Notes: generated by a model from the sequence alone, not told the origin. A DNA stretch of 64,000 nt from Clostridia bacterium (GCA_017936645.1 JAGBFD010000070.1:4714-68713); one strand, 5' to 3'. Shown: positions 7,660 to 60,191, counted from the stretch's first letter. Numbers and translations are program-made.

Positions 7660-7682
7660 AATAACACTCCTTTGCTTTTATG

Positions 7683-7711
7683 AGTATATCACCACACTTT
7701 TTTATTGTCAA
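7683..7711 (-). promoter_or_regulatory. promoter of the GH38-like/SDR operon
   Basis: On the minus strand: TTGACA (7711-7706), 17 nt, TATACT (7688-7683). Confidence 0.5.
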
Positions 7712-7734
7712 TGTTAATAAAACTTTATAAAAAA

Positions 7735-7763
7735 TTGACAATGTATTATAAAATTGCTACAAT
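7735..7763 (+). promoter_or_regulatory. promoter of the PHP-MFS operon
   Basis: TTGACA (7735-7740), 17 nt, TACAAT (7758-7763). It is back-to-back with the minus-strand promoter. Confidence 0.5.
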
Positions 7764-7793
7764 TAATTCAATATACAATCAGGAGCTGAGATT

Positions 7794-8546: not shown

Positions 8547-8559
8547 AGGAGCTGTATAT

Positions 8560-10056: not shown

Positions 10057-10078
10057 TTTGATAAAATATCGCAAAAAA

Positions 10079-10117
10079 TGAAGTTGCTCCATAAAAGAGC
10101 AACTTCATTTTCTGTTT
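10079..10117. terminator. bidirectional terminator between convergent genes
   Basis: Stem TGAAGTTGCTC/GAGCAACTTCA (10079-10107), A-run before and TTTTCTGTTT after. Confidence 0.75.
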
Positions 10118-10128
10118 CAACATATTTA

Positions 10129-11220: not shown

Positions 11221-11287
11221 TTTCTATCACCTCTGATTAGATTTGTTGACCGGTCTATACACATAATATAGTATCAAAAGATAAAAA

Positions 11288-11306
11288 ACAATAAAGCATT
11301 TATTGT
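11288..11306. promoter_or_regulatory. perfect palindrome upstream of the XRE/TPR regulator gene, candidate operator
   Basis: ACAATAAA-GCA-TTTATTGT (8-bp arms). It overlaps the -35 zone of an extended -10 promoter (TGATACTAT; TACTAT = 11273-11268, minus strand). Confidence 0.3.
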
Positions 11307-11340
11307 AAACAACTAAAGTAACTCTTGAAAAAAACAAAAA

Positions 11341-11388
11341 AACAGCTATATCACTAATATCCGTTTGAGATATTTTGATACAGCTGTT
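11341..11388 (-). terminator. terminator downstream of the YitT-family gene
   Basis: Arms AACAGCTATATC/GATACAGCTGTT. The minus-strand transcript is followed by TTTTTTTGTTTTT (11340-11328). Confidence 0.65.
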
Positions 11389-11395
11389 TAATTTT

Positions 11396-12310
11396 TTAAT
11401 CTCCTGCCGCAGGTGGTGTGAAGCCTTTTCCAAGGATCTCGTTTGCTTCTGTAAGAACGACAAACGAGTCAGGGTCAAGTTCTTTTACTTTTTTTCGTAT
11501 TTTGGGTATCTCGTGGCTTCTTGCGGCAACGATTACAAGCTCATTCGTATCGCCTGTGTAACCGCCCTTGCCTTCGATTATAGTTGCACCTCTTTTACAG
11601 GCTTCGGTTATCATCTTTGCTATCTCATCACCTTTTTTAGTGAAGATATAAAGCATTTTGCCGCTTCCCGTACCGTAGAGAATGTGATCCATAACTTCAG
11701 AGCTTGCAAAAATAAGTATCGCCGCATACATAGCACTGTCAACACTCTTGAATACAATAGCAGCAGTTATAACAACAGCAGCATCGCAGACAAGAATCAT
11801 AGTACCCATAGTCATATGAGGCCAGATTTTTTTAAGTAATCTGCCGAGGACATCCGTACCGCCCGAAGTTGCACCGCGGACAATAATCAATGCAATTCCT
11901 GCACCGCACATAGCACCGCAGAAAAGAGAAGCGAGCAGCTTGTCGCCTGTATAAGCACCGATAAATCCTGCATCCATAACAGCAGCAACACCGTCGATAC
12001 AAAGTGACAGCACAACGGTCGTCCACAATGTTTTAAGAGTAAATGCCTTTCCTATGAATATCCAGGCAAGGATTATCAGCGGGACATTGAGTACCAATCC
12101 GGTAAGACCTACAGGAAGCTGAGGCACAAGATAATTTATTATGATAGCAAGACCCGTAATTCCGCTTTGTGCAATGTTATTGGGTATCGCAAAAATATTT
12201 ACACCTGCAGCATACAGCAAACATCCGAAAAGATAATATACATTATCAATTGCAAACTCTTTTATACTGAAATTTTTAAAAACAGATTTGATGCTTTCAC
12301 CCTTTTTCAA
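11396..12310 (-). CDS. YitT-family membrane protein (DUF2179-type C-terminal domain)
   Basis: Five or six TM segments plus a C-terminal soluble domain, as in YitT. GGAGG lies 7 nt before TTG 12310, which is preferred over the track start 12334 (also TTG). Confidence 0.7.
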   Translation of the reverse strand: MKKGESIKSVFKNFSIKEFAIDNVYYLFGCLLYAAGVNIFAIPNNIAQSGITGLAIIINYLVPQLPVGLTGLVLNVPLIILAWIFIGKAFTLKTLWTTVVLSLCIDGVAAVMDAGFIGAYTGDKLLASLFCGAMCGAGIALIIVRGATSGGTDVLGRLLKKIWPHMTMGTMILVCDAAVVITAAIVFKSVDSAMYAAILIFASSEVMDHILYGTGSGKMLYIFTKKGDEIAKMITEACKRGATIIEGKGGYTGDTNELVIVAARSHEIPKIRKKVKELDPDSFVVLTEANEILGKGFTPPAAGD

Positions 12311-12323
12311 TTTCAAGCCTCCG

Positions 12324-12716
12324 TTAAGCTTCAATAATATAAAACAGCTCTTTGATTCTGTCTATCTCATCTGAAAGATACAAGTAGCCGATAAGAGCTT
12401 CAAAACCCGTAGCCATATGATAATCGCTCTGAGATGCATTCTTAGGCAAGTGTCCCGATTTTGCGTTTCTTCCGCGTTTGTAGACAGATGTCTCTTTTTC
12501 GGTAAGATGCGGAAGCAATTTTTCAACGAATCCTGCCTGTGCAGATGCTTTAACTTTCTGAACAGCAAGATTGTGAAGATCATTAGCAGGTCGGTTTGCT
12601 TCACATATAAGAGTTTCTCTTACAAGCAAATCAAAAACAGTATCACCTATAAATGCAAGTGTCAGAGGACTTAACTCGTTCGGTTTTATATCTTTTTCTT
12701 TAAATAATCTTTCCAT
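12324..12716 (-). CDS. mrnC: mini-ribonuclease III
   Basis: 130 aa. LAFIGDTVFDLLVRE and ATGFEALIGYLYL are RNase III-like signature blocks of Mini-III. Confidence 0.85.
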   Translation of the reverse strand: MERLFKEKDIKPNELSPLTLAFIGDTVFDLLVRETLICEANRPANDLHNLAVQKVKASAQAGFVEKLLPHLTEKETSVYKRGRNAKSGHLPKNASQSDYHMATGFEALIGYLYLSDEIDRIKELFYIIEA

Positions 12717-12723
12717 TTTTCAA

Positions 12724-13995
12724 TTACGGCACGAAGTCAAATTCAAGGTCATAAATGACAACCGTGTCGCCTTCCTGTATTCCTTTTTCTTCAAGTGCAT
12801 CTATGATACCGCTTGACTGCAAGACTCTCTGAAAATACTGCAATGACTCATAATCATCAAGATCGGTTCTCTGCAATATCTTAAGAAGCCATTCACCTTC
12901 AACAAAGTACATATCATCTTCGACAGTAATGGTGAATTTACCGCTGCTGTTCTTTTCGAAGAATTCGGCAGGAATCTCTTCCTTCTCATATTTTTTGATA
13001 GGAGGCAGAGTTGCAAGCTTTGCGGCAACAGCATTAATAACCTCCTGTGTGCCCTCAACTATCGGTGCACACATCGTAAAATACTGATAACCTCTTTCAG
13101 TAAAGTACTTTTCGAGTTTTTCAAGCTGTTCGTCAGTCGCAAGATCAATTTTATTGCCTACGACAATCTGCGGCAGGTCCTTCATATCAGGATTGAACTT
13201 GACAAGTTCAGCGTTGATAGTGTTGAAGTCTTCAATAGGATCTCTGCCTTCACTGCCTGCAGCATCAATAATATGCACAAGCAGACGGCAACGCTCAACA
13301 TGGCGAAGGAACTCGTGGCCAAGTCCTATTCCATCGCTCGCACCTTCAATGAGTCCCGGTATATCCGCCATAACAAAAGAATTACCCTCACCCATTGAAA
13401 CGACACCGAGAACGGGAGTAAGTGTTGTGAAGTGGTAATCGGCAATAATCGGTTTTGCCTGGCTGACTACTGAGATAAGCGTTGACTTTCCGACATTAGG
13501 AAATCCGAGCAGACCTACATCAGCGAGGAGCTTGAGTTCAAGACTTACCTCCCACTCTTCACCCGGCACACCGGGCTTAGAAAAACGTGGAGCCTGTCTT
13601 GTAGGTGTAGCAAAATGTGCATTACCCCATCCGCCTCTGCCGCCTTTTGCAGCAATGAACTCATAATCGTCAGACATATCCGCCATAACCTTACCGCTTT
13701 GTATCTCACGGATAACAGTACCTCTCGGAACTTCAATTATAAGATCCTCGCCTCTCCTGCCGCTTCTGCGACCGGTCTGACCGGGTTCACCGTTAGGCGC
13801 CTTGTAATTTCTCTTGTAACGGAAATCAGCAAGAGTGGCAAGATTATCATTAACTTTAAAAACGATATTTCCGCCTCTGCCGCCGTCGCCACCGTCAGGA
13901 CCACCTGCGGCAACATACTTTTCACGGTGGAAAGCGACAGCTCCGTTACCGCCGTCGCCCGCTTTGATTTTAATTTTCGCTATGTCTACAAACAT
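12724..13995 (-). CDS. obg: GTPase Obg/CgtA
   Basis: MFVDIAKIKIKAGDGGNGAVAFHREKY Obg fold, GFPNVGKST P-loop, DIPG and NKID motifs, and a C-terminal TGS-like/OCT domain. Confidence 0.95.
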   Translation of the reverse strand: MFVDIAKIKIKAGDGGNGAVAFHREKYVAAGGPDGGDGGRGGNIVFKVNDNLATLADFRYKRNYKAPNGEPGQTGRRSGRRGEDLIIEVPRGTVIREIQSGKVMADMSDDYEFIAAKGGRGGWGNAHFATPTRQAPRFSKPGVPGEEWEVSLELKLLADVGLLGFPNVGKSTLISVVSQAKPIIADYHFTTLTPVLGVVSMGEGNSFVMADIPGLIEGASDGIGLGHEFLRHVERCRLLVHIIDAAGSEGRDPIEDFNTINAELVKFNPDMKDLPQIVVGNKIDLATDEQLEKLEKYFTERGYQYFTMCAPIVEGTQEVINAVAAKLATLPPIKKYEKEEIPAEFFEKNSSGKFTITVEDDMYFVEGEWLLKILQRTDLDDYESLQYFQRVLQSSGIIDALEEKGIQEGDTVVIYDLEFDFVP

Positions 13996-14016
13996 AGTAA
14001 CTGTACCTCTGAAATC

Positions 14017-14670
14017 TTATTTTAACTCAGCTCTTGCAGCCTTGATATTTTCAACAAACTGCTTAGCTGTCTCAGTAATCTTTTTATAATCGCCTGTATT
14101 GGCACCTGCTGTAAGTGATGAACCTGCACCGACTGCTACGGCACCTGCCCTGATCCATTCACCGACATTATTTACGTCAACACCGCCTGTCGGCATCATC
14201 TTAGCATAGGGAATCGGACCTCTGATATCTTTTATAATCTTCGGGCCGAAAAGGTCTCCGGGGAAAACTTTGAGAATGTCTGCACCGTTTTCCATAGCAA
14301 TAACACCTTCACGTACCGTCATAATACCCGGCATCATCGCGACTCTGTAGCGGTTGCACATTTTAAGTGTTTCAAGATCAAGATACGGACTTACGATATA
14401 CTGTGCACCGCTGAGCATCGCTATACGTGCCGTCGCAGCATCCATAACTGTACCTGCACCGAGTATGATGTCATTTTCATCATATTTCTTTGCAAGTTCT
14501 TCAATTACTCTGTCAGCGTGAGGAACTGTGAATGTAAGCTCAATAGCGGCAACTCCGCCTTCCATACAGGCGTCCACAATTCTCTCTGCTTTATCTGTGC
14601 TTTCGGCACGAACAACAGCAACAATGCCGCAGTCCTGTATTCTGGTTAAAATTCTTTCTTTATCCATCAT
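14017..14670 (-). CDS. eda: 2-dehydro-3-deoxy-phosphogluconate (KDPG) aldolase
   Basis: 217 aa. IVAVVRA..., IELTFT and the GA..VSPY and KVFPG blocks are typical of Eda-type class I aldolases. Confidence 0.85.
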   Translation of the reverse strand: MMDKERILTRIQDCGIVAVVRAESTDKAERIVDACMEGGVAAIELTFTVPHADRVIEELAKKYDENDIILGAGTVMDAATARIAMLSGAQYIVSPYLDLETLKMCNRYRVAMMPGIMTVREGVIAMENGADILKVFPGDLFGPKIIKDIRGPIPYAKMMPTGGVDVNNVGEWIRAGAVAVGAGSSLTAGANTGDYKKITETAKQFVENIKAARAELK

Positions 14671-14679
14671 GATTACTCC

Positions 14680-15777
14680 TTATCTCTGTACTCTCGCACC
14701 TGCACCGCTGACAATTCTTTCGACTTCAGCTTTACTTGCCATTGAAGTGTCGCCGGGAGTTGTCATAGCAAGTGCACCGTGAGCTACACCGTAATTAACC
14801 GCTGTCTGTGCATCGCCTGTAGTCATAAGACCGTAAACCAGTCCTGATGCAAAGCTGTCTCCTCCGCCTACGCGGTCATATATCTCAAGAGCCGGAAGCT
14901 CAAGACCTTTATATATCTTTCCGTCTGCCCAGCAGATTGCACTCCAGTCGTTGACTGTAGCCGTTTTGACAGTACGAAGCGTTGTTGCGATTACTTTAAA
15001 GTTAGGATAAACCTTTACCGCATTTTCAATCATCTTGAAATATCCGTCAAGGTTCAGTTCCTTAAGATTTTCGTCATTACCTTCGACTTCAAGACCGAGA
15101 CAAGCCGTAAAATCTTCTTCATTGCCGATCATAACATCGATGTATTTTGCAATCTCCTTATTGACCTGCTGTGCTTTTTCTTTACCGCCGATATCCTTCC
15201 AGAGTGAAGGACGGTAATTAAGGTCATAAGAAACTATCGTTCCGTATTTTTTAGCAGCCTTGACAGCTTCAATAACAACCTCTGCAGTAGTGTCTGAAAG
15301 TGCGGCAAAAATACCGCCTGTATGAAGCCATCTTACACCGAGAGTGCCAAAGATATAGTCCCAGTCAATATCTCCTGCTTTGAGCTGAGAAGCTGCTGTA
15401 TTGCCTCTGTCAGAAACACCGACAGCTCCTCTTATACCGTAACCTCTTTCGGTGAAATTGAGTCCGTTACGTACAGTTCTGCCGATACCGTCATATTTAA
15501 CCCATTTTATCAACGAAGTATCAACTCCGCCCTGAAGAATAAAATCCTCAACAAGGCGACCGACTTCATTGTCGGCAAAAGCCGTGACAACAGATGTCTT
15601 AAGTCCGAAGCATCTTCTGAGTCCCCGTGCAACGTTATACTCACCGCCGCCTTCCCATACGCGGAAGTTTCTGGCTGTTTTTATCCTTCCGTCGCCCGGA
15701 TCAAGTCTGAGCATAACCTCGCCGAGTGAAATCATATCAAAAGTGCATTCATTCTGCTCTCTTAATTTCAAATCCAT
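14680..15777 (-). CDS. kdgK: 2-dehydro-3-deoxygluconokinase (PfkB family)
   Basis: PfkB motifs GEVMLR...GG and a C-terminal GGGDSFASG. AAAGGA lies about 9 nt before ATG 15777, which is preferred over the TTG at 15786. Confidence 0.8.
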   Translation of the reverse strand: MDLKLREQNECTFDMISLGEVMLRLDPGDGRIKTARNFRVWEGGGEYNVARGLRRCFGLKTSVVTAFADNEVGRLVEDFILQGGVDTSLIKWVKYDGIGRTVRNGLNFTERGYGIRGAVGVSDRGNTAASQLKAGDIDWDYIFGTLGVRWLHTGGIFAALSDTTAEVVIEAVKAAKKYGTIVSYDLNYRPSLWKDIGGKEKAQQVNKEIAKYIDVMIGNEEDFTACLGLEVEGNDENLKELNLDGYFKMIENAVKVYPNFKVIATTLRTVKTATVNDWSAICWADGKIYKGLELPALEIYDRVGGGDSFASGLVYGLMTTGDAQTAVNYGVAHGALAMTTPGDTSMASKAEVERIVSGAGARVQR

Positions 15778-15782
15778 ATAAA

Positions 15783-16799
15783 TCAATCCTTTCTTCTGAA
15801 TTTCTTAAACGGTCTTGTAATATAAAAAATTATCATAGTCGGATCTTTAACCATTCTTGCAAATTCGTACAGATGCCTTGATTTGAAGAAAGGTATGAAA
15901 AGCTTTTTTATTTTTGCATCAATGTCATCGTTATTTTTAAAATCTTCAAGCCACTTGTCACCTATACGCTTACTCTCTCTCATTACATACTTCTGTGCAG
16001 GCGTACCGATCGAATTGGTTCTGTTGTAGAATATTGTCTGATACAAATACTGAAGACAGTATGCTCTGAGAAAGCTGCATTCTGAATCTCTGAGAAACTC
16101 ACAAAGGTCATCAAACGACAGTGTAATAGAAAACTTGCTCTCTGAGAAACCGGAAGTAACTGAAGAATTTTCACGTGTATAGTAATAATAAAGAGTAAGG
16201 TCAACTATAGCTGTTTTCATTCCCGTAGCCAATAAACGTATGATATAATTAGCATCTTCACCGTTAGCTATTCCTACAGGAAAACGAGCTTTCAAGGCAT
16301 CCTCACGTTTAAAAAGCTTGGCGCATGAAGATTTACCTATGACATTGCCGTTAACCGTTTTGAACAGCTCCTCGTGCGAAGCGTCATGACAATCATAAGA
16401 TTCGATCAGTGGCATCTCCTCATCAAGCTCATAGGTTGATTTCTGATGTCCCGATACCATACCGTAATCGTTTTCTTCGATACATTTAACGAGTATCTCA
16501 ACCGCTTGGTTATGCATATAATCATCACCGTCGATGAACATAATGTATTCACCGCGGGCTGACTCAAGACCCTTGTTACGTGCAGCAGAAACACCTGCAT
16601 TTTCCTGATAAATATATCTGATACGGCTGTCAGACTTAAGAAGTTCGCCTATAACCTGTGCAGAACTATCAGTACTTCCGTCATCAACGCAGATAACTTC
16701 GATGTTTTTGTAGGTCTGACTTAATATACTTTTAATGCAATGTTCTATATAATCTTCGAGATTGTAAACCGGTATAATTACGCTTACCATAGCAGACAT
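15783..16799 (-). CDS. family 2 glycosyltransferase
   Basis: VSVIIPVYNLEDYIEHCIKSILSQTYKNIEVICVDDGSTDSS and FIDGDD (DxD). The stop (15783-15785) lies 5 nt upstream of the kdgK ATG. Confidence 0.85.
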   Translation of the reverse strand: MSAMVSVIIPVYNLEDYIEHCIKSILSQTYKNIEVICVDDGSTDSSAQVIGELLKSDSRIRYIYQENAGVSAARNKGLESARGEYIMFIDGDDYMHNQAVEILVKCIEENDYGMVSGHQKSTYELDEEMPLIESYDCHDASHEELFKTVNGNVIGKSSCAKLFKREDALKARFPVGIANGEDANYIIRLLATGMKTAIVDLTLYYYYTRENSSVTSGFSESKFSITLSFDDLCEFLRDSECSFLRAYCLQYLYQTIFYNRTNSIGTPAQKYVMRESKRIGDKWLEDFKNNDDIDAKIKKLFIPFFKSRHLYEFARMVKDPTMIIFYITRPFKKFRRKD

Positions 16800-53218: not shown

Positions 53219-53224
53219 GTTAAT

Positions 53225-54646
53225 TTATTTTACATAATCTATAATATATTCATCTATTTTCATGCTGTTACTCTCATCGTCATAAGCGACGTAATAAAAC
53301 CGATATTTCCCGCTTTCTTCCGGCAGTTCATTAATCTGTTTTGTATCGACATTATACACAATGAAATATCTGCCTTTATAAAATTCAGAAAAAGGAGAAG
53401 TTATTCCTATGAGATCGTTCGGTACACTCTTTAACCAAATGGAGTTCTGTTCGATTTCTTTTTCAAAATCTTCAACATCGGTTTCGACAAAGTAAACATC
53501 GCTGGTATAATAAATAAAACCTCTGCTGTTCGTTTGCTCACTGTCGGACAAATTCTGAGTATCGATCTGCTTTGTTTCCGGAAAATCAATATCAAGAGCT
53601 TCTTCAACCTTAACTATTGCTGTATCGCTATGGTCATACATTTCAGCAGTCTGAAATGTACCTATACCGTAAATGCACAAAAGAACGGTAAAAATAATAC
53701 CTGCGACAATATTCTTTTTACACCTATATCCTCGTTTTTTAAAGATTATGCCCGCTATCAGCGAAGCTACCGGAATCGGAAGAACAACAAAAAACGCCCA
53801 GGGACTTTGAAAAAAGATATGACTTTCTGACATAATCGTTCCGATAATCATAGAGAAAAATAACGACAGAAGCGATGCAACAAACAATACCATAAGTATG
53901 GTTTTATACAGCGTATATCTTTTTTCGGTCGTAACCGCATTTTCCTTTGAGTAATTCTTCATCAGGAAGAACATACTGTTTGCTTTCAATGATTCTTTCC
54001 GCAGGACGAAGGCACCTCCATCAACTGAAAGCAAAAGATAATTACCCATATAACGAATTTTATCAATCTTTTCAAAATTATATTGATATTTTGCTCTGAA
54101 TTCTCCATTTTTTAAAACCACTACCGTGAAATAATTCTCATAAACATTGAATTCATACGCAGAACCGAGCAATCTGTTTTTAACCGTCTTGAAACTCCTG
54201 TAGTTAAAAACAGCAGCTCTAATCAGCGAAAACGTTATCGCAATAAAAACGCCAAATATTATTGCCACTCCCGGAAATGTTTCCTGAGCATAATCCATAG
54301 AACCGAAAAAGAAAAAAGTGACTACTAATGTAATTATAAACCGTGTGATCAACGGTTTGTTAATAAGCCTTGAAAGTTTATTAATCTCACTTTTTGAGTA
54401 GCTCATAAAATATGATTCTAAAGGAATATCCGTATCTTCTTTTATATCACCGGCACAACCTAAAAGTTCATCGACAGAAACCTCAAAGATTTCTTTTAAC
54501 CTGATAAGATTATCAATCGTAGGAACTGTCTGATCCTTTTCCCACAAGCTGACAGTCTGTCTGCTGACCAAAAGTTTTTGGCCTAATTCCTCCTGAGACA
54601 AGCCGAGTTTTTTTCTGTAAAAATTTATTCTTTCACCTGTTGTCAC
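53225..54646 (-). CDS. membrane-tethered XRE-family HTH protein (HTH + YcxB/bPH-like + multi-TM + C-terminal extracytoplasmic domain)
   Basis: GTG start with AAAGGGGG RBS. N-terminal RKKLGLSQEELGQKLLVSRQTVSLWEKDQTVPTIDNLIRL, at least 5 hydrophobic segments, and a roughly 130-aa C-terminal soluble domain. Confidence 0.7.
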   Translation of the reverse strand: MTTGERINFYRKKLGLSQEELGQKLLVSRQTVSLWEKDQTVPTIDNLIRLKEIFEVSVDELLGCAGDIKEDTDIPLESYFMSYSKSEINKLSRLINKPLITRFIITLVVTFFFFGSMDYAQETFPGVAIIFGVFIAITFSLIRAAVFNYRSFKTVKNRLLGSAYEFNVYENYFTVVVLKNGEFRAKYQYNFEKIDKIRYMGNYLLLSVDGGAFVLRKESLKANSMFFLMKNYSKENAVTTEKRYTLYKTILMVLFVASLLSLFFSMIIGTIMSESHIFFQSPWAFFVVLPIPVASLIAGIIFKKRGYRCKKNIVAGIIFTVLLCIYGIGTFQTAEMYDHSDTAIVKVEEALDIDFPETKQIDTQNLSDSEQTNSRGFIYYTSDVYFVETDVEDFEKEIEQNSIWLKSVPNDLIGITSPFSEFYKGRYFIVYNVDTKQINELPEESGKYRFYYVAYDDESNSMKIDEYIIDYVK

Positions 54647-54669
54647 GAGTGTATCCCCCTTTACACTAC

Positions 54670-54698
54670 ATTATAATATCTTACGTCAAAAAAGCCAA
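54670..54698 (-). promoter_or_regulatory. promoter of the membrane-tethered XRE gene
   Basis: On the minus strand: TTGGCT (54698-54693), 17 nt, TATAAT (54675-54670). Confidence 0.45.
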
Positions 54699-54708
54699 GC
54701 ACTATTTA

Positions 54709-54723
54709 CTTGACTTTGTCAAG
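54709..54723. promoter_or_regulatory. perfect palindrome CTTGAC-NNN-GTCAAG just upstream of the -35, candidate operator
   Basis: CTTGACTTTGTCAAG at 54709-54723, 10 nt from the -35 hexamer of the XRE gene promoter. Confidence 0.3.
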
Positions 54724-54760
54724 CAGCTCTTGCATCACTCATTTTACTGCTATCAAAGAA

Positions 54761-54791
54761 AAAGAGTTCGGCCTCAAAGGCTGAACTCTTT
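54761..54791 (-). terminator. terminator after the zinc-ribbon/propeller gene
   Basis: The minus-strand RNA reads AAAGAGTTCAGCC-TTTGA-GGCCGAACTCTTT and is followed by TTCTTTG. Confidence 0.75.
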
Positions 54792-54805
54792 CTGATTATA
54801 TTAAG

Positions 54806-56308
54806 TTAAAACGCTCTGCCGTCAAATTCAACCTTGCCGTCGGGAGTGATTACTACGCTGTAGGTGTCCATCATATTTTCCCAGTTTGCATTGTACTGCA
54901 GTACATAATTTCCGTTGATGATCTGTATAATCGGTTTATCAGCACCGGTAGATGAATCTGAAATCTCAGCCGTAAGATTAGCTGTCCACAAAACTTCGCC
55001 CATAAGGTCAGTCTTCATTACCGCATCGGACTTTCCGGGTGAAACAAGGAGAATTCCGTCTTTCAGTTTACGGATATCATATTTCGCTCCGACATACTTC
55101 GGTTCCATCTCATTTTCACCTGTTTTCGCATTGAGGATATACATACTGCCGTTAGCAACGAGATAGATATGATTTGCAGTATAGTCAAGTACGGCAGTCG
55201 TGGTCCGGTCAAACTCTCTGCTCCATATCTTTTTCAGATTCCTGTCGTAGCATTCAAGTGTGTAAACCTCAAGGCTATGGTCAAATATCTGAAGATAAAA
55301 GTGTTCAAAATCTGCGGAGAAAGTAATCTTTCTCTCAACAGGCCATTCACTCTTGCAGTCAACGATTGAGCCGCCCAAACCTGCAAAAAATCTGTATTTT
55401 GTAAAGTTTGCATTGCTCTGATTGTCAAGCTCGGCTGTATAGTGCGATCCTTCAAAGAATTCATAATCGAAATCGCTGTCGGCTGAATCATCGTTCTTGG
55501 TGTATCTGATTTTTACGTCATCACCAAAAATATATCTCGCTAAAGTACGTATCTCTTCCATTGAGAACATAGGTTCTGACCAATCAAGATATGAAAAATA
55601 TATGTATCTGTTGACAAGGACTGTCGGCACGGTATAACTGGTTCCGTCGACTTCGTATTTGTTCACATTATCGTACTTACCGTAGACATATAATGAGTCG
55701 CCTTCCATTATACGTGTCTGAGTCTGTGCACCCTTGATGACGGCATATTCCTTAGTGGGCTGATAGTATCCGTCCTCCGTCTCAAATGCACCATATTCGA
55801 CAAGAAGAGTGTATTCCTTATCATTACTCTCGATAACTTTTGTCACATAGCAAAGGAAGCTTATCTGCGCTCCTTTATACACCTGCGGATAACGCTGTAA
55901 TGAGCTGTACGGAGCCTCAAAGTAGTCAGTATCAAAATACTCAACGAGAAGCTTCTGTGTATCAGTGAGCTTCGCTCCTTCACCTCTGAGCTTAACATTC
56001 ATAAGACCAAGATCATCGTCTGACTTTGCATCCTTCTCTTTGAATCCATCGCCTTCAGTCTGCGAAGACGAAACAGCATTGTTTTTGTTTTCCGCAAGCT
56101 TTTTCACCACTTTGGGAACAACAAGAACCGAAGTCACAACGATCGCCACAACGCATACAACCGCAATTACTGCGATAATTATCATTTTAGAACTTTTCTT
56201 TTGCTTTGGTGTTACCGCAATCTGATTTTCATCAATGAACTTACCCATACAATAAGGGCAGAATTTGCTCTCATCAGGAAGCTCTTTTCCGCAGAATTTG
56301 CATTGCAA
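54806..56308 (-). CDS. zinc-ribbon / single-TM / extracytoplasmic beta-propeller-like protein
   Basis: TTG start with GAGGAG RBS. (M)QCKFCGKELPDESKFCPYCMGKF zinc ribbon, TM segment MIIIAVIAVVCVVAIVVTSVLVV, and a C-terminal repetitive beta-strand-rich region. Confidence 0.65.
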   Translation of the reverse strand: MQCKFCGKELPDESKFCPYCMGKFIDENQIAVTPKQKKSSKMIIIAVIAVVCVVAIVVTSVLVVPKVVKKLAENKNNAVSSSQTEGDGFKEKDAKSDDDLGLMNVKLRGEGAKLTDTQKLLVEYFDTDYFEAPYSSLQRYPQVYKGAQISFLCYVTKVIESNDKEYTLLVEYGAFETEDGYYQPTKEYAVIKGAQTQTRIMEGDSLYVYGKYDNVNKYEVDGTSYTVPTVLVNRYIYFSYLDWSEPMFSMEEIRTLARYIFGDDVKIRYTKNDDSADSDFDYEFFEGSHYTAELDNQSNANFTKYRFFAGLGGSIVDCKSEWPVERKITFSADFEHFYLQIFDHSLEVYTLECYDRNLKKIWSREFDRTTTAVLDYTANHIYLVANGSMYILNAKTGENEMEPKYVGAKYDIRKLKDGILLVSPGKSDAVMKTDLMGEVLWTANLTAEISDSSTGADKPIIQIINGNYVLQYNANWENMMDTYSVVITPDGKVEFDGRAF

Positions 56309-56330
56309 AACCTATCACTCCTCTAAAATA

Positions 56331-56361
56331 CTAACCGATATCCTCAGAAGATATCGGTTAA
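56331..56361 (-). terminator. terminator after the zinc-ribbon/tandem-repeat gene
   Basis: Stem TTAACCGATATC/GATATCGGTTAG followed by TATTTTA on the minus strand. Confidence 0.65.
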
Positions 56362-56393
56362 AGTATAATATTATCTCGTTTTATTTACAAGTC

Positions 56394-57212
56394 TTATTCA
56401 GAAAAAATTGTGTCAAGAATATATTCAATATCCTCATCACTAAAGCTTTCACCTGCTATATCTACATATGTAATCTCAAATTCACTTGTATCTACATCTA
56501 CAGTAAACTGCATACATAAGTTTTCATATTCACCGTAATATTCACAGGTTCCGTTGAACTCAACGATTCTGTCGCCATCTTCTGAAATAAACGATTCCCA
56601 CTCAGGGTTCGCAAAGAAATCATCAAATGCTTCTTCAACAGTTTCATCCGGGAAATAATACATCGAGCCTTCCTTAACTATATCGACATACTTATCTGTA
56701 CCGTCTGCTTTTTGGGTATCAGCAAAAATCGTATCAAGAATATACTCAAGGTCATCATAGCCGAAGCTTTCACCTGCAATATCAACATACGTAATCTCAA
56801 ACTCGCCGGTTTCTTCGTCTACGGTAAACTGCATACATAAGTTTTCATCCTCACCGTAATACTCACACGTACCGTTGAACTCAACGATTCTGTCGCCATC
56901 TTCTGAAACAAACGATTCCCACTCAGGGTCTGCAAAGAAATTATCGAACGCTTCTTCAACAGTTTCATCCGGGAAATAATAAAGCGAGCCTTCCTGAACC
57001 ATATCGACATACTCATCTGACCCACCAGCTTTTCCGATCGCAGAGAATATACCGCCCAAAATAAGTACAGCTGCTATAAGAAGACATACACAGCCGACGA
57101 CTATACCGATAATTTTCTTTTTATTGTCCTTTTTCTGAGAGACCGATGCAGCACAAGCATCGCAAACCGTCATATTAGCCTGAAGTTCTTTTCCACAATT
57201 TTTACATTTCAT
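56394..57212 (-). CDS. zinc-ribbon / single-TM protein with two tandem copies of a roughly 100-aa acidic domain
   Basis: GGAGGAAAACAGA lies before the ATG. MKCKNCGKELQANMTVCDACAA zinc ribbon, TM segment IIGIVVGCVCLLIAAVLILGGIF, then aa 66-165 and 173-272 are near-identical. Confidence 0.7.
   Translation of the reverse strand: MKCKNCGKELQANMTVCDACAASVSQKKDNKKKIIGIVVGCVCLLIAAVLILGGIFSAIGKAGGSDEYVDMVQEGSLYYFPDETVEEAFDNFFADPEWESFVSEDGDRIVEFNGTCEYYGEDENLCMQFTVDEETGEFEITYVDIAGESFGYDDLEYILDTIFADTQKADGTDKYVDIVKEGSMYYFPDETVEEAFDDFFANPEWESFISEDGDRIVEFNGTCEYYGEYENLCMQFTVDVDTSEFEITYVDIAGESFSDEDIEYILDTIFSE
56397..57017 (-). repeat. in-frame tandem duplication, period 321 nt (2 copies, the second lacking the linker)
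   Basis: GTAAACTGCATACATAAGTTTTCAT occurs at 56503 and again at 56824, an offset of 321. The copies at 56697-57017 and 56397-56696 look about 85-90 percent identical by eye. Confidence 0.9.
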
Positions 57213-57283
57213 TCTGTTTTCCTCCGTTACTGATTATAAAAATTATTTTAATTTGCATTAAAAGAATTGTCATTACAGTTAAA

Positions 57284-57550
57284 TCAATTTTCAATAGCTT
57301 TGAAACCGTATTCGTTTTTGACCACAAAGTTCCTTATCATAAATCCGAACACACAAGCGACTGCTGCTATGACACCGCCTACAAAAGCGTTGTATGAAAG
57401 ATTGAATATAACCGTAAATAAGTCAACCAAAACCTGAATTACTGCTATTATCTCCCAAACCATAGCCTCAGTTTTATTATTTCTGACAATTTCAAAACCA
57501 AGTGATTCAAGACAACTCTTCCTTTCTGCATTTTGTGCGTTCAAAAACAT
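57284..57550 (-). CDS. possible small two-TM protein (88 aa from ATG 57550, or 59 aa from ATG 57463)
   Basis: Hydrophobic core MVWEIIAVIQVLVDLFTVIF...GGVIAAVACVFGFMI. Neither candidate start has a well-spaced SD, and the upstream ATG is part of a terminator U-tract. Confidence 0.35.
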   Translation of the reverse strand: MFLNAQNAERKSCLESLGFEIVRNNKTEAMVWEIIAVIQVLVDLFTVIFNLSYNAFVGGVIAAVACVFGFMIRNFVVKNEYGFKAIEN

Positions 57551-57614
57551 GACCGCTGACAGTATTTTACAACGTCAGCGGTCTGTTTGTCCTATGCAGA
57601 CTGCATAGGACAAA
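57551..57614 (-). terminator. two consecutive stable hairpins downstream of the kinase gene
   Basis: Hairpin B is TTTGTCCTATGCAG/CTGCATAGGACAAA (57586-57614). Hairpin A is GACCGCTGAC/GTCAGCGGTC (57551-57583), followed on the minus strand by ATGTTTTT. Confidence 0.6.
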
Positions 57615-57628
57615 ATAAAATTTTAGTG

Positions 57629-58327
57629 TTATAATTCTCTAAGAAGCTCCGTTACGGTAGGATATCTCTTATTGGGATCGAGGTTTATGCATTTTTCTAT
57701 CACCTTGCTGAATCTACCTTTGTAAAGATGCTTTGAAGGGTGCTCACCCGTAAGCATTATATTGAGCAAAATACCCATAGAAAAAACATCTGAACGAGGA
57801 TCCGTCTGGTTGATTCCGAACTGTTCAGGTGCAGCAAAACCTACAGTCCCTACAAACGAAGTATCAAGGGAACAGTAATGCTTATAAATCCTCGATGCGT
57901 CAAAATCAATCAGTTTCACGTTCCCGTAACTGTCTATCATAATATTTTCAGGTTTTATATCGCGGTGAATTATGTTTACGGAATGTAACGCTTCGAGTGC
58001 TGAGCACACTCCCCTTGCAACAGCCTTTGCACCTTTCAATGTGTAAAGACCACCGGAAAGAACATCTGCAACAGTAACGCCGTTAACGTACTCTTCTATA
58101 ACACGGCATTTGTCCCCTGTTCTTTCTACGCTGTACACTTTGGGCAGATTAGGATGTGAGATTCTGCTGAGCATTTCATAGACACATCCGTCAGACTCAA
58201 ACGTCTTAACTACAAGAGAAGTACCGAGTGTCTTATGACGAAGGACAATAACAGACTTTTCTTCAGTATTTTTCAAAGCCTTGACAAAGGCAAACTGCTC
58301 TGCAATAATATTTTCAAAATCGTTCAA
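57629..58327 (-). CDS. stand-alone Hanks-type Ser/Thr protein kinase domain, atypical
   Basis: TTG start. LVVK41, E51, HRDIKPEN (aa 121-128), DFD (141-143, instead of DFG) and AAPE (165-168). There is no glycine in the expected G-loop and no TM, PASTA or other sensor domain. Confidence 0.75.
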   Translation of the reverse strand: MNDFENIIAEQFAFVKALKNTEEKSVIVLRHKTLGTSLVVKTFESDGCVYEMLSRISHPNLPKVYSVERTGDKCRVIEEYVNGVTVADVLSGGLYTLKGAKAVARGVCSALEALHSVNIIHRDIKPENIMIDSYGNVKLIDFDASRIYKHYCSLDTSFVGTVGFAAPEQFGINQTDPRSDVFSMGILLNIMLTGEHPSKHLYKGRFSKVIEKCINLDPNKRYPTVTELLREL

Positions 58328-58357
58328 AAAATCACTTCCAAGAGGTTTAAATCAGGT

Positions 58358-58780
58358 ATGAAAAGCACAGATCAACTTATGAATGAATTAATGAAGGCAC
58401 ATAATATCAGCAACTACCTTAAAGAAAACAGTGTCTATATGATAAGCGATGAGTTGCCCACCTACTTAACAAATATACTCAAAAAGAAAAAGTTAGTCAA
58501 GTCTGCCGTGATTAAAAACTCTGAGCTTAGTGAAGTGATGGGATACCAGATATTTTCCGGCACAAGAAAACCTTCCAGAGATTCTCTGCTGAGCATATGT
58601 ATAGCTATGCAGCTTGATGTTGAGGAAACACAGGAAATTTTAAAAATCGCACAGTTTGCTTCTCTTTATCCCAAATCAAAGCGTGACTGTATTATCATTA
58701 ACGGCATAGCAACCGGCAAATCTGTCGCTCAGATCAATGAAACTCTCTACGAACTGAATGAAAATACAATAAACCAATGA
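58358..58780 (+). CDS. small HTH-domain protein (XRE-like), divergent from the kinase gene
   Basis: ATG 58358, whereas the track start 58235 would overlap the kinase gene by 93 nt. ...KNSELSEVMGYQIFSGTRKPSRDSLLSICIAMQLDVEETQEILK... is an HTH-like pattern. 140 aa. Confidence 0.55.
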   Translation: MKSTDQLMNELMKAHNISNYLKENSVYMISDELPTYLTNILKKKKLVKSAVIKNSELSEVMGYQIFSGTRKPSRDSLLSICIAMQLDVEETQEILKIAQFASLYPKSKRDCIIINGIATGKSVAQINETLYELNENTINQ

Positions 58781-58785
58781 AACTC

Positions 58786-58816
58786 TTCCCTGAATTATTT
58801 TCAGGGAAATTTTTTA
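58786..58816 (+). terminator. terminator of the HTH gene
   Basis: TTCCCTGAA-TTATT-TTCAGGGAA followed by ATTTTTTATT. Confidence 0.8.
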
Positions 58817-58883
58817 TTCTTCTTGTTTTAATCACATCATAGTGGTAAAATAGCAGTACCAAAAATACAAAAGGAAGATTTAT

Positions 58884-60191
58884 ATGCACAAAAAATTAGC
58901 TCTTACTCCTCCTATGGGATGGAACAGCTGGGACTGTTACGGTGCCGCTGTCAATGAAGAACAGCTTCTCGCCAATGCTGACTATATGGCTGAGCATCTC
59001 AAGGATTACGGTTGGGAATACATAGTTTGCGATATTCAATGGTCCGAACCGACAGCAAACAGCTTTTATTACCATTACTTTGCACCCCTTTGTATGGACG
59101 AATATTCACGTCTTATTCCGTCCGTTGAGCGTTTTCCTTCCTCTGAAGGTGGTAAAGGTTTTAAGCCTATCGCTGACTACATACATTCACTCGGACTTAA
59201 ATTCGGAATTCATATTATGAGAGGTATTCCCCGTCAGGCTGCCCATCAGAATACAAAAATCAAGTGTGAAGGCGTTACCGCACGTGATATAGCAAATCCC
59301 GCTTCAATCTGTTCCTGGAACCCTGATATGTACGGACTTTTTGCCGACCGTAAAGGTGCACAGGAGTACTACGATTCTATCTTTGAACTTTACGCTTCAT
59401 GGGGTGTGGATTATATCAAGTGTGACGACATCGCCAATACCGAAATTTACCCGCACAATCCTTATTCGGCAAAAAAAGAAATCGAAATGTTGCGCAAAGC
59501 CATAGATAAATGCGGCAGAGATATGGTTCTGAGTCTTTCTCCCGGACCCGCTCCCGTCTGTGAGCATGAACACCTCGCCGCAAACGCAAATATGTGGCGT
59601 ATGACAGGTGACTTCTGGGATGAATGGAGCAAACTCCACGCTATGTTTGAACGTTGTTTTGCCTGGCAGGAATATGTTCAGCCGGGTGCATGGCCTGACT
59701 GCGATATGCTCCCCCTCGGCAGAATTCAGAAAACAGAGGAACTGCCTGAATACAGAAACCGCTATACGCGTTTCACCCATGATGAACAGATTACAATGAT
59801 GACACTCTGGGGCATTTTCCGTTCTCCGCTTATGATGGGCGGTGAAATGCGTGAAAATGACGAATTCACACTTTCTTTGCTCCAAAACTCAGAGCTTATA
59901 GATATGCTCAGAAATTCAAGCGGTGCAAGGCAGTTCAGCCGTGAGGAAACTGACGGTAAAGGCGAAATCATCTGGACATCAAACGGTAAAAACTGCAAGT
60001 ACGTCGCTCTGTTTAACACAGATGAAAAAGAACGGGAAATTTATTTTGACATCTCTGATATCTCAATCAGCGGAGTCAATTACAGCGTACGTGATATGTG
60101 GAAGCACGAAGAGTATACCGTAACTGACAGCAATTTCTCTGCAAAGGTAAATCCGCACGGTGCAAGGCTTTTCAGAATCAATTTAAAATAA
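58884..60191 (+). CDS. GH27 alpha-galactosidase
   Basis: LALTPPMGWNSWDCYG and DYIKCDD (nucleophile region) are GH27 signatures. 435 aa with no signal peptide. Confidence 0.85.
   Translation: MHKKLALTPPMGWNSWDCYGAAVNEEQLLANADYMAEHLKDYGWEYIVCDIQWSEPTANSFYYHYFAPLCMDEYSRLIPSVERFPSSEGGKGFKPIADYIHSLGLKFGIHIMRGIPRQAAHQNTKIKCEGVTARDIANPASICSWNPDMYGLFADRKGAQEYYDSIFELYASWGVDYIKCDDIANTEIYPHNPYSAKKEIEMLRKAIDKCGRDMVLSLSPGPAPVCEHEHLAANANMWRMTGDFWDEWSKLHAMFERCFAWQEYVQPGAWPDCDMLPLGRIQKTEELPEYRNRYTRFTHDEQITMMTLWGIFRSPLMMGGEMRENDEFTLSLLQNSELIDMLRNSSGARQFSREETDGKGEIIWTSNGKNCKYVALFNTDEKEREIYFDISDISISGVNYSVRDMWKHEEYTVTDSNFSAKVNPHGARLFRINLK

What the first reader, a model, noticed from the sequence alone, without database searches (positions are those of the whole stretch)
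53225..58780. AT-rich accessory cluster of membrane-signalling-type genes: tethered XRE regulator, two zinc-ribbon/TM proteins, micro-TM ORF, atypical stand-alone kinase and HTH protein
**Seen in sequence.** Six neighbouring genes have no metabolic signature and sit between two carbohydrate loci.
- An XRE-HTH::YcxB-like::multi-TM::C-terminal-domain protein.
- A zinc-ribbon::TM::beta-propeller-like protein.
- A zinc-ribbon::TM::two-copy repeat protein.
- A 59-88-aa two-TM ORF.
- A 232-aa kinase domain with no sensor.
- A 140-aa HTH protein transcribed head-to-head with the kinase.

The two zinc-ribbon heads are paralogous: M(Q/K)CK(F/N)CGKEL. Parts of the region, for example 53220-53300, are visibly more AT-rich than the flanks.

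**Caveat.** Each gene is followed by its own hairpin, so this is not a single operon.

**Inference.**
- The cluster may be a cell-envelope sensing, phage-defence or abortive-infection-like module.
- In that model, small cytoplasmic zinc-ribbon heads of membrane proteins dock or are phosphorylated by the sensor-less kinase.
- Output would go through the tethered XRE protein and/or the small HTH protein.
- I know of no described system with this composition.
Basis: inference. Interest (0 to 1): 0.6.

Follow-up and report, generated by a model that had tools for sequence, protein, structure and literature searches.

The report
Split receptor kinase module with regulator
Three of the six genes (a stripped-down Ser/Thr kinase, a small DNA-binding protein and zinc-ribbon membrane proteins) form a widespread, apparently undescribed signalling cassette of gut Clostridia that looks like a receptor kinase split into separate sensor and kinase proteins. 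The membrane-tethered XRE gene is an unrelated neighbour.

Summary
All six ORFs exist as described, in an Acutalibacteraceae gut MAG.

**What is conserved.** Only part of the cluster is a system.
- The 232-aa kinase has no Gly-rich loop but keeps HRDxKPEN, DFD and APE.
- The 140-aa XRE-like HTH protein sits beside it in 69 of 80 related loci. It also does so in 6 of 7 hits in other Bacillota families.
- Zinc-ribbon::TM::variable-ectodomain genes lie within 3 kb downstream in 62 of 71 loci, about 40-fold above background, in arrays of up to five.
- The same three parts also occur in another gene order (HTH, sensor, kinase). One-piece forms occur too: kinase-TM-ectodomain (some with LRR), kinase-ZnR-TM-ectodomain, and kinase-like::HTH.

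**Binding prediction.** A complex prediction places the head of gene B on the kinase's alphaD/alphaE/beta7-beta8 surface. The score is 0.74 against 0.42 for the best control. This is support, not proof.

**Best reading.** A split receptor Ser/Thr kinase with plug-in sensors and a dedicated regulator.

**What does not belong or hold.**
- The XRE-TM gene is not linked to the kinase.
- The micro-ORF is a remnant of a ZnR-3TM gene.
- A phage-defence role is not supported.
- Low GC is modest.

The scan found this module before on other DNA (e1-3018470, e1-4754057). I found no publication describing it.

The parts
58358..58780 (+). F: 140-aa XRE-like HTH protein, the dedicated partner of the kinase. 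Thr4 is near-invariant.
   Evidence: Adjacent to the kinase in 69 of 80 loci. The reverse association holds in 151 family genomes and in other Bacillota families. The model has pLDDT 93 with an XRE-type core. T4 is conserved in 92% of 130 representatives.
57629..58327 (-). E: 232-aa stand-alone Hanks-type Ser/Thr kinase with no Gly-rich loop. It has DFD in place of DFG.
   Evidence: Pfam Pkinase E 1.8e-38, matching from profile position 50. HRDxKPEN, DFD and APE are invariant. Best solved relative is PknB, E 2.7e-30.
58281..58309 (+). Promoter-like site for F (TTGACA-17-AATAAT with TG), embedded in kinase codons 7-16.
   Evidence: Both hexamers are invariant at DNA level, including synonymous sites, in the 10 nearest loci. 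They are not conserved in the wider set.
58472..58500 (-). Promoter-like site for the kinase (TTGACT-17-TATATT), embedded in codons about 39-48 of F.
   Evidence: The blocks GTCAAGTC and AAATATACT are invariant in the 10 nearest loci.
57547..57613 (-). Two tandem hairpins directly after the kinase stop codon. The second is followed by a U-run.
   Evidence: -39.1 kcal/mol, z -7.6.
57284..57550 (-). D: 88-aa two-TM ORF. It is a shortened relic of a 160-aa ZnR-3TM protein that follows the kinase in relatives.
   Evidence: BLASTP against the L039 protein: residues 20-65 match 30-79 (E 2e-8) and 70-88 match 136-154. The zinc-ribbon head is missing.
56394..57212 (-). C: ZnR::TM::two-repeat ectodomain protein with a generic, non-canonical head.
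   Evidence: Its ectodomain family lies downstream of the kinase in 7 related loci.
56331..56361 (-). Terminator-like hairpin after C.
54806..56308 (-). B: ZnR::TM::beta-domain plus propeller-like ectodomain protein. It carries the canonical head C..CG..LP.E..FCPYC and is the candidate sensor subunit.
   Evidence: Residues 1-41 are predicted to bind the kinase. Its ectodomain family lies downstream of the kinase in 9 related loci.
54760..54792 (-). Terminator-like hairpin with U-tract after B.
53225..54646 (-). A: membrane-tethered XRE-HTH protein with five predicted TM helices. It is a neighbour, not part of the module.
   Evidence: Absent between B and the transporter gene in L035. Long homologues occur in only 2 of 150 family genomes, neither with a kinase hit at E <= 1e-30. 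It has the lowest GC of the region, 35.0%.

Best explanation
Genes F, E, B and C, together with the relic D, are one copy of a conserved three-part signalling cassette of gut Clostridia. It is a receptor Ser/Thr kinase split into two polypeptides, plus a dedicated transcription factor.

**Proposed mechanism (inferred).**
- The membrane proteins carry a small cytoplasmic zinc ribbon, one TM helix and a highly variable outward-facing domain. They act as exchangeable sensors.
- The zinc-ribbon head docks on the C-lobe of the soluble kinase, at the alphaD, alphaD-alphaE loop, alphaE and beta7-beta8 turn. This surface corresponds to the docking groove of MAP kinases (from general knowledge of kinase structure).
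- Ligand binding outside changes kinase clustering or activity at the membrane.
- The kinase then acts on the XRE-like HTH protein. The near-invariant Thr4 is the candidate acceptor.
- The HTH protein in turn controls the head-to-head promoter pair and possibly other genes.

**Shown here.**
- The genetic linkage of the three parts.
- The existence of one-piece versions.
- Conserved catalytic residues.
- Promoter hexamers conserved at DNA level inside the coding regions.

**Predicted only.** The head-kinase contact.

**Inferred.** Sensing, phosphorylation of the HTH protein and the regulatory output.

The XRE-TM gene A is an unrelated, sporadically distributed neighbour.
For: **1. HTH-kinase linkage.**
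- The HTH gene lies next to the kinase in 69 of 80 genome loci.
- In 151 family genomes, nearly all strong HTH hits lie within 2 kb of a kinase hit.
- In other Bacillota families, 6 of 7 strong HTH hits are adjacent to a kinase of this family.

**2. ZnR-TM linkage.**
- ZnR::TM ORFs lie within 3 kb downstream on the same strand in 62 of 71 loci.
- Their density there is 4.25 per 10 kb, against 0.108 per 10 kb elsewhere in the same loci.
- They occur in tandem arrays of up to five, with at least 30 unrelated ectodomain clusters.

**3. Same parts in a different order.** In L008 the order is HTH, ZnR-TM, kinase, with 4-nt overlaps between genes.

**4. One-piece forms.**
- About 95 longer relatives (43-48% identity for the best) have the same G-loop-less DFD kinase. 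It is followed by one TM helix at about residue 235-248 and an ectodomain of 170-800 aa. Several ectodomains contain LRR_5.
- Five relatives are kinase-ZnR-TM-ectodomain.
- HTH genes sit directly upstream of one-piece kinases in L029 and L033.
- P0460, and partly P0435 and P0464, fuse a kinase-like domain to the HTH.

**5. Complex prediction.**
- Kinase plus B residues 1-41 plus Zn scored 0.74; the best of 3 controls scored 0.42.
- That mark was reached by 58 of 80 solved complexes and 2 of 110 mismatched pairs.
- The runs agree in at least 96% of contacts, and partner pLDDT is at least 71.
- Kinase contacts are residues 84, 89, 93-96, 98-99, 102-103, 131 and 133-135. Head contacts are residues 5-6, 8, 15-16 and 18-23.

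**6. Catalytic residues.** H121, R122, D123, K125, N128, D141, T156, G160, P167, E168, D176 and R178 are 97-100% conserved in both the split and the one-piece groups.

**7. Candidate acceptor.** T4 of the HTH protein is conserved in 92% of 130 representatives that are under 50% identical to each other.
Against: - No experiment exists for any member. Binding is predicted only, one control reached 0.42, and my own alignments and a Zn ligand differ from the calibration conditions.
- The predicted interface residues G93, Y95, G99 and G135 are at least 98% conserved only in the close split clade. In 35 more distant split kinases with canonical heads downstream they are A/G, F/L/Y, E and E/D. They are therefore not a universal docking signature.
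- The kinase lacks the Gly-rich loop. It has no conserved beta3 lysine: position 41 is L, R or I in most split members (K in the window's own kinase) and R or K in one-piece members. ATP binding is therefore unproven, and a scaffold role is possible.
- In this window each gene has its own terminator-like hairpin, so co-expression of B and C with the kinase is not assured.
- No phosphatase gene is in the locus.
- No ligand can be named for any ectodomain.
Confidence: 0.55

Rival explanations
1. Pseudokinase adaptor. The kinase-like protein does not phosphorylate anything. It acts as a scaffold that links the zinc-ribbon receptors to the HTH protein, for example by sequestering the regulator at the membrane and releasing it on signal.
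For: - There is no GxGxxG motif and no conserved beta3 lysine or alphaC glutamate.
- The kinase-like::HTH fusion P0460 has HMD and DYS in place of HRD and DFD.
- The predicted head contact lies on a docking surface.
Against: HRDxKPEN, the first Asp of DFD, APE and the activation-loop Thr are 97-100% conserved across both distant groups. This is not expected for a pure scaffold. K16, R30 and H31 are at least 97% conserved among 119 stand-alone kinases (K16 and R30 only 53-55% in one-piece forms) and could replace the canonical lysine.
Confidence: 0.15
2. The zinc-ribbon membrane proteins are outputs or substrates, not sensors. They would be surface proteins whose production or activity is controlled by the kinase/HTH pair.
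For: - They lie downstream of the kinase in the same orientation.
- Their ectodomains are very diverse and occur in tandem arrays, as seen for variable surface proteins.
- In this window they have their own terminators.
Against: - One-piece relatives have the ectodomain and the kinase in one chain with a single TM helix, which is the classical receptor layout.
- The head is predicted to sit on a docking surface, not in the active site.
- The cytoplasmic part is only about 40 residues.
Confidence: 0.15
3. Anti-phage defence or abortive-infection module in which the kinase acts like Stk2, PD-T4-6 or MADS Mad6.
For: - PADLOC kinase models match: mad6 at 1.3e-41 and PD-T4-6 at 7e-38.
- GC is slightly low.
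- The membrane paralogues are diversified.
Against: - The PADLOC matches cover only the generic kinase core (residues 51-199).
- None of the other five proteins matches a defence family beyond its HTH.
- No nuclease, NTPase or other effector gene is present.
- The locus is syntenic with L035 between the same sugar genes.
- Relatives are receptor-type kinases with LRR ectodomains.
Confidence: 0.07
4. HipBA-like toxin-antitoxin pair, with a kinase toxin and an XRE-HTH antitoxin.
For: - The pair is a kinase plus an XRE-type HTH protein.
- In some relatives the HTH gene comes first and overlaps the next gene.
- HTH-domain models of antitoxins match protein A, not F.
Against: - The kinase has the Hanks (Pkinase) fold, and no HipA family matched.
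- The genes are divergent here.
- Relatives are membrane-anchored or carry large ectodomains.
Confidence: 0.03
5. All six genes, including the tethered XRE protein A, form one system.
For: They are adjacent and share low GC.
Against: - A is absent from all 80 kinase loci apart from 4 HTH-only matches, and from the closest syntenic locus.
- Long homologues occur in only 2 of 150 family genomes, and neither showed a kinase hit at E <= 1e-30.
Confidence: 0.03

Closest known systems
PASTA-type Hanks receptor kinases of Gram-positive bacteria (PknB, PrkC, StkP)
   Same: It has the same kinase fold; PknB is the best solved match (E 2.7e-30). One-piece relatives have the same layout: cytoplasmic kinase, one TM helix, extracellular sensor.
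   Different: - There are no PASTA domains, no Gly-rich loop and no conserved beta3 lysine, and DFD replaces DFG.
- Here the sensor is a separate protein with a zinc-ribbon head.
- A dedicated XRE-like regulator gene is attached.
PknH-EmbR of Mycobacterium tuberculosis (receptor Ser/Thr kinase with an adjacent cognate transcription factor; from general knowledge)
   Same: A membrane receptor kinase is encoded next to the regulator it is thought to control.
   Different: EmbR is a SARP/FHA protein, whereas this regulator is a 140-aa XRE-type protein with no FHA domain. Here the kinase is split from its sensor. No homology beyond the kinase fold was tested.
Split BY-kinases of Firmicutes (CapA/CapB, TkmA/PtkA) versus one-piece Wzc (from general knowledge)
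   Same: The same evolutionary pattern applies: a membrane modulator and a cytosolic kinase are separate proteins in some lineages and one chain in others.
   Different: BY-kinases have an unrelated P-loop kinase fold, phosphorylate tyrosine, and have no zinc ribbon.
Listeria monocytogenes Lmo0618 (380-aa putative kinase; lead from earlier finding e1-3018470)
   Same: It is described as a putative protein kinase with a C-terminal membrane part. This is like the kinase-plus-3-TM relatives that pair with the HTH gene in this family. Its deletion lowered intracellular replication (PMC3091722).
   Different: I could not fetch its sequence, so homology to this family was not tested here. It has no separate zinc-ribbon sensor that I know of.
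BcrR-type membrane-bound XRE one-component regulators (comparison for gene A only; from general knowledge)
   Same: Both have an N-terminal XRE HTH followed by TM helices in one protein.
   Different: Homology beyond the HTH was not tested. A has an extra C-terminal domain of about 140 aa that matches no family.

Membership tests
Hanks-type (eukaryotic-like) Ser/Thr protein kinases, Pfam PF00069 | Match to the Pkinase profile above the gathering score | tested here: met
   132.9 bits against a cut-off of 31.7, but only profile positions 50-198 match.
Hanks-type (eukaryotic-like) Ser/Thr protein kinases, Pfam PF00069 | Catalytic loop HRDxKxxN, Mg-binding Asp of DFG, and the APE motif | tested here: met
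   H121, R122, D123, K125, N128, D141 (as DFD), P167 and E168 are invariant in 119 split and 95 one-piece relatives.
Hanks-type (eukaryotic-like) Ser/Thr protein kinases, Pfam PF00069 | Gly-rich loop GxGxxG | tested here: not met
   No GxGxxG lies N-terminal of HRD in the window protein or in nearly all relatives.
Hanks-type (eukaryotic-like) Ser/Thr protein kinases, Pfam PF00069 | beta3 (VAIK) lysine and alphaC glutamate | tested here: inconclusive
   The profile alignment to PknB puts I27 at K40. By position in the strand, K41 is present in the window protein, but this position is L, R or I in most split members. K16, R30 and H31 are at least 97% conserved in the stand-alone group and could substitute.
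XRE / HTH_3 transcription factors (gene F) | Sequence match to an HTH_3-type profile | tested here: not met
   No Pfam or NCBIfam family matches at E <= 0.1. A profile of 24 homologues hits the XRE protein 3op9 only at E 0.5.
XRE / HTH_3 transcription factors (gene F) | Five-helix XRE-type fold | tested here: met
   The model has pLDDT 93. The best Foldseek matches are all XRE-type regulators: ClgR, C.Esp1396I, DdrO and the CapH N-domain. TM is 0.57-0.76 relative to target and probability is 1.0, but E is about 0.06-0.2. Related Atlas clusters carry HTH_3, HTH_31 or HTH_26 in part of their members.
Zn_Ribbon_1, Pfam PF13240 (genes B and C) | Profile match above cut-off and two CxxC pairs | tested here: met
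   B scores 25.7 bits against a cut-off of 25 and has CxxC...CxxC. C has the four Cys but scores 20.1 bits, below the cut-off.
PASTA receptor kinases (PknB/PrkC/StkP) | Extracellular PASTA repeats in the same chain as the kinase | tested here: not met
   NF033483 matches at 128.6 bits against a cut-off of 450, over the kinase core only. No PASTA domain is found in E, B or C.
Anti-phage kinases (PD-T4-6, Stk2, MADS Mad6, BREX PglW) | Full-length match to the system's kinase model, plus the system's partner genes | tested here: not met
   PADLOC and NCBIfam matches cover only the kinase core. For example, MAD6 scores 94.6 bits against a cut-off of 460. No partner gene matches.
HipBA toxin-antitoxin | HipA-family kinase fold with an upstream hipB in the same operon | tested here: not met
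   No HipA family appears among the Pfam or NCBIfam hits, and the genes are divergent.
BamB/PQQ-like beta-propellers (ectodomain of B) | Closed multi-bladed propeller fold | tested here: inconclusive
   The top Foldseek hits are propellers (BamB, E 1.4e-6). However, TM is only 0.27-0.40, and the strand-rich part spans only about 210 residues.

The most novel reading that the evidence does not exclude
A previously unrecognised class of modular bacterial receptor-kinase systems. Interchangeable sensors tagged with a roughly 25-residue zinc ribbon plug into one shared kinase. The kinase lacks the Gly-rich loop, and the sensors bind through a MAP-kinase-like docking groove. The kinase then switches a dedicated XRE-type regulator by phosphorylating its N-terminal Thr4. 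The whole unit is wired through two promoters that lie inside each other's coding regions and give 5'-overlapping antisense transcripts.
Probability: 0.3. Interest if true: 0.75.

Novelty: new variant of a known kind. Interest (0 to 1): 0.6.

Why it matters
**Split architecture.** Bacterial Hanks-type kinases are usually studied as single-chain receptors (PASTA kinases) or as orphan soluble enzymes whose inputs are unknown. This cassette suggests a third layout. A soluble minimal kinase would receive input from separate, rapidly diversifying membrane sensors through a tiny zinc-ribbon adaptor, and would have its own transcription factor.

**Consequences if true.**
- It gives a concrete function to the very common 'zinc-ribbon plus TM plus unknown domain' proteins of Clostridia.
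- It explains how a kinase without a Gly-rich loop can be kept under strong selection.
- It offers a compact, testable signalling unit in abundant but uncultured gut and rumen bacteria.

**Abundance.** The HTH family has 186 clusters at E <= 1e-30 and 1820 at E <= 1e-10, counted among representatives clustered at 50% identity.

Tried and rejected
**Interface conservation as a docking test.** G93, Y95, G99 and G135 are conserved only in the close clade, not in distant split kinases. The result neither supports nor excludes the interface. Co-variation with the head subtype is possible but confounded by phylogeny.

**Embedded promoters beyond the close clade.** In the wider set of 27-38 loci the hexamer codons are not fixed, so the embedded promoters are a feature of the nearest 10 loci only.

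**Operator search.** No inverted repeat of at least 10 nt was found in 58150-58560.

**Expression.** Two metatranscriptome runs hold only two short contigs (210 and 212 nt, at least 99% alike), both over gene C. None covers the kinase or the HTH gene. Contigs in an RNA library do not show transcription, so nothing can be concluded.

**The look-up of encoding contigs.** I used loci L029, L033 and L008 instead.

**Literature.**
- No paper describes this cassette.
- C. difficile CD2148 is a different, TM-anchored kinase that lacks the catalytic Asp and Asn (PMC9674922).
- The bacterial STK atlas preprint (10.1101/2025.01.12.632604) names pseudokinase families, but I could not place this family among them.

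**Other steps that led nowhere.**
- A YcxB-like domain in A has no support.

Full report
**Observation**

- **A** (53225-54646, -) has an N-terminal HTH_3 domain (E 2.7e-14) and five predicted TM helices. Nothing supports a YcxB-like domain, and the rest of the protein matches no family.
- **B** (54806-56308, -) has a zinc ribbon (PF13240, just above cut-off) and one TM helix. Its ectodomain models well (pLDDT 86). The C-terminal half resembles BamB/PQQ-type propellers, but only loosely (E about 1e-6, TM about 0.3).
- **C** (56394-57212, -) has four Cys (the profile scores below cut-off), one TM helix and two 106-aa repeats that are 82% identical.
- **D** (57284-57550, -) has two predicted TM helices.
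- **E** (57629-58327, -) is a bare kinase domain.
- **F** (58358-58780, +) starts 30 nt from E, head to head.

Every gene is followed by a stable hairpin. The flanks are sugar genes: GH3 and a CitMHS transporter on one side, alpha-galactosidase and an MFS_2 transporter on the other.

GC is 38.2% against 42.2 +/- 1.8% for genome windows of equal size, which is the 2nd percentile. The low value comes mainly from A, D and F. The kinase and B are near the genome mean.

Source names attached to near-identical proteins place the genome in Acutalibacteraceae. The assembly is 68% complete.

**The kinase**

More than 100 clusters of proteins of about 232 aa share at least 55% identity with E.

- In an alignment of 20 members, HRDxKPEN, DFD (not DFG), APE and the activation-loop DT...GT are invariant. 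No GxGxxG is present.
- The best solved relative is PknB (E 2.7e-30). The profile alignment puts a hydrophobic residue at the VAIK lysine.
- By strand position, residue 41 is K in the window protein but L, R or I in most stand-alone members. It is R or K in longer relatives.
- K16, R30 and H31 are at least 97% conserved among 119 stand-alone kinases.
- Strict conservation of the C-lobe catalytic residues across distant groups argues for activity. The N-lobe is non-canonical, so activity remains unproven.

**Neighbourhood**

A scan of one genome per species returned 576 confirmed relatives, of which 80 loci were kept.

- The HTH gene F lies immediately upstream in 69 of 80 loci. Several of the remaining loci lack upstream flank.
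- In 151 genomes of the same family, almost every strong HTH-profile hit lies within 2 kb of a kinase hit. Most pairs are divergent and some are co-directional.
- In a sample of 300 genomes of the phylum, 7 carry the HTH family. In the five I checked, 6 of 7 HTH genes sit next to a kinase of this family.
- ZnR::TM ORFs lie within 3 kb downstream on the kinase strand in 62 of 71 loci with enough flank. Their density is 4.25 per 10 kb, against 0.108 per 10 kb elsewhere in the same loci. Fifty loci have the head type C..CG..LP.E..FCP.C that B carries.
- The ectodomains fall into one large cluster of 411-450-aa proteins (some with weak beta-helix matches), the B family, the C family and about 30 small clusters or singletons. 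Arrays of up to five paralogues occur.
- In the window's own genome only B combines the canonical head with a nearby TM helix.
- In L008 the same three parts occur in the order HTH, ZnR-TM, kinase, with 4-nt overlaps.

**What does not belong**

- Gene A gives only HTH-level matches in 4 of 80 loci. It is absent from L035, the closest locus. There the order is MFS, HTH, kinase, C, B, transporter, GH3.
- Homologues of A longer than the HTH occur in only 2 of 150 family genomes. Neither showed a kinase hit at E <= 1e-30.
- The alpha-galactosidase gene is also missing in L035.
- D aligns with two segments of a 160-aa ZnR-3TM protein that follows the kinase in L039 and L040. It lacks the zinc-ribbon head and an internal segment, so it is a shortened relic.

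**One-piece forms**

- Among longer relatives, about 95 of 120 have the same G-loop-less DFD kinase. It is followed by one TM helix at about residue 235-248 and an ectodomain of 170-800 aa. Several ectodomains contain LRR_5.
- Five relatives have a zinc ribbon between the kinase and the TM helix.
- Others carry a C-terminal 3-TM anchor and still pair with the HTH gene.
- HTH genes sit directly upstream of one-piece kinases in L029 and L033.
- The HTH profile also finds proteins in which a kinase-like domain is fused to the HTH: P0460, and partial forms P0435 and P0464.
- These fusions tie all three parts together. They identify the window's arrangement as the split version of a receptor kinase.

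**Predicted contact**

The kinase (alignment A1) was folded with residues 1-41 of B (alignment A3) and one zinc ion.

- The score was 0.74 against 0.42 for the best of three controls.
- That mark was reached by 58 of 80 solved complexes and 2 of 110 mismatched pairs.
- The runs agree in at least 96% of contacts, and partner pLDDT is at least 71.
- The counts hold only roughly, because my own alignments and a ligand were used.
- Kinase contacts are residues 84, 89, 93-96, 98-99, 102-103, 131 and 133-135. By the PknB alignment these are alphaD, the alphaD-alphaE loop, the start of alphaE and the beta7-beta8 turn. From general knowledge, these elements form the docking groove of MAP kinases.
- Head contacts include F16 and P18-K23.
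- G93, Y95, G99 and G135 are at least 98% conserved in close stand-alone kinases and variable in one-piece kinases. They also vary in distant stand-alone kinases that have canonical heads downstream. This test is therefore inconclusive.

**The HTH protein**

- It has no Pfam match.
- Its model (pLDDT 93) has nine helices. The central five match XRE-type regulators. Three N-terminal and two C-terminal helices are unmatched.
- T4 is among the 13 most conserved positions (92%) in 130 representatives under 50% identical to each other. It is a plausible phospho-acceptor by inference.

**Promoters**

- A TTGACA-17-AATAAT site for F lies in kinase codons 7-16.
- A TTGACT-17-TATATT site for the kinase lies in codons about 39-48 of F.
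- Both hexamer pairs are invariant at DNA level, including synonymous sites, in the 10 nearest loci, whose kinases are 56-77% identical to E. They are not fixed in the wider set.
- The predicted transcripts would overlap by about 150 nt at their 5' ends.

**Comparison and novelty**

- The system works like a Hanks-type receptor kinase with a cognate regulator. It is not a PASTA kinase, a HipBA pair or a known defence kinase (see the membership rows).
- Full-text searches found no description.
- The scan noted the same module on other DNA: e1-3018470 and e1-4754057. It also noted this stretch itself (e1-4085430).
- I re-tested the main claims of those notes here: the linkage, the split-versus-one-piece relation and the alternative gene order.

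**Verdict**

This is a real, conserved and apparently undescribed variant of receptor Ser/Thr kinase signalling. The six-gene system, the defence reading and the horizontal-origin signal are not supported.

Noticed in passing
window 58281-58309 (+) and 58472-58500 (-): Each of the two divergent genes carries the other's promoter-like hexamers inside its first 50 codons. The codons GTC AAG (Val-Lys) supply the -35 box in both. The hexamers are invariant at synonymous sites in the 10 nearest loci. The predicted transcripts overlap about 150 nt, 5' to 5'.
   Followed up: partly
G000:C168:3257-3577 (outside the window): The genome encodes a second protein, in an open frame of about 354 aa, that contains the same HTH-family domain (profile positions 28-133). 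This longer family occurs in about 25 of 151 family genomes, without a kinase hit listed beside it.
   Followed up: no
window 58884-60191 and 53225-54646: Compared with the closest syntenic locus L035, this genome has two extra genes. One is an alpha-galactosidase between the HTH gene and the MFS transporter. The other is the XRE-TM gene A between B and the CitMHS transporter.
   Followed up: partly
G000:C16:14192-31959 (outside the window): Four long Ser/Thr kinase genes (open frames of 642-1183 aa) lie within 18 kb on one contig of the same genome.
   Followed up: no
G000:C124:264-2353 (outside the window): Three tandem small ZnR-TM proteins with Pro/Gln-rich linkers carry a generic head type. 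No kinase was seen nearby in the own-genome kinase search.
   Followed up: no
P0460 (381 aa), P0435, P0464: In these metagenomic proteins a kinase-like domain is fused to the N-terminus of the HTH domain. It has HMD and DYS in place of HRD and DFD.
   Followed up: partly
window 56300-58900: Near-identical DNA (half or more of the sampled words) is present in 17 public runs of animal gut metagenomes. Several are labelled sheep or bovine. Logan contigs break repeatedly inside gene C, at its two 82%-identical repeats.
   Followed up: partly
L106 and L108 (Flavonifractor loci), about 7288-13287 and 10683-16682: Five consecutive ZnR::TM paralogues of 312-423 aa follow the kinase with gaps of a few bases. 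This is the largest sensor array seen.
   Followed up: no
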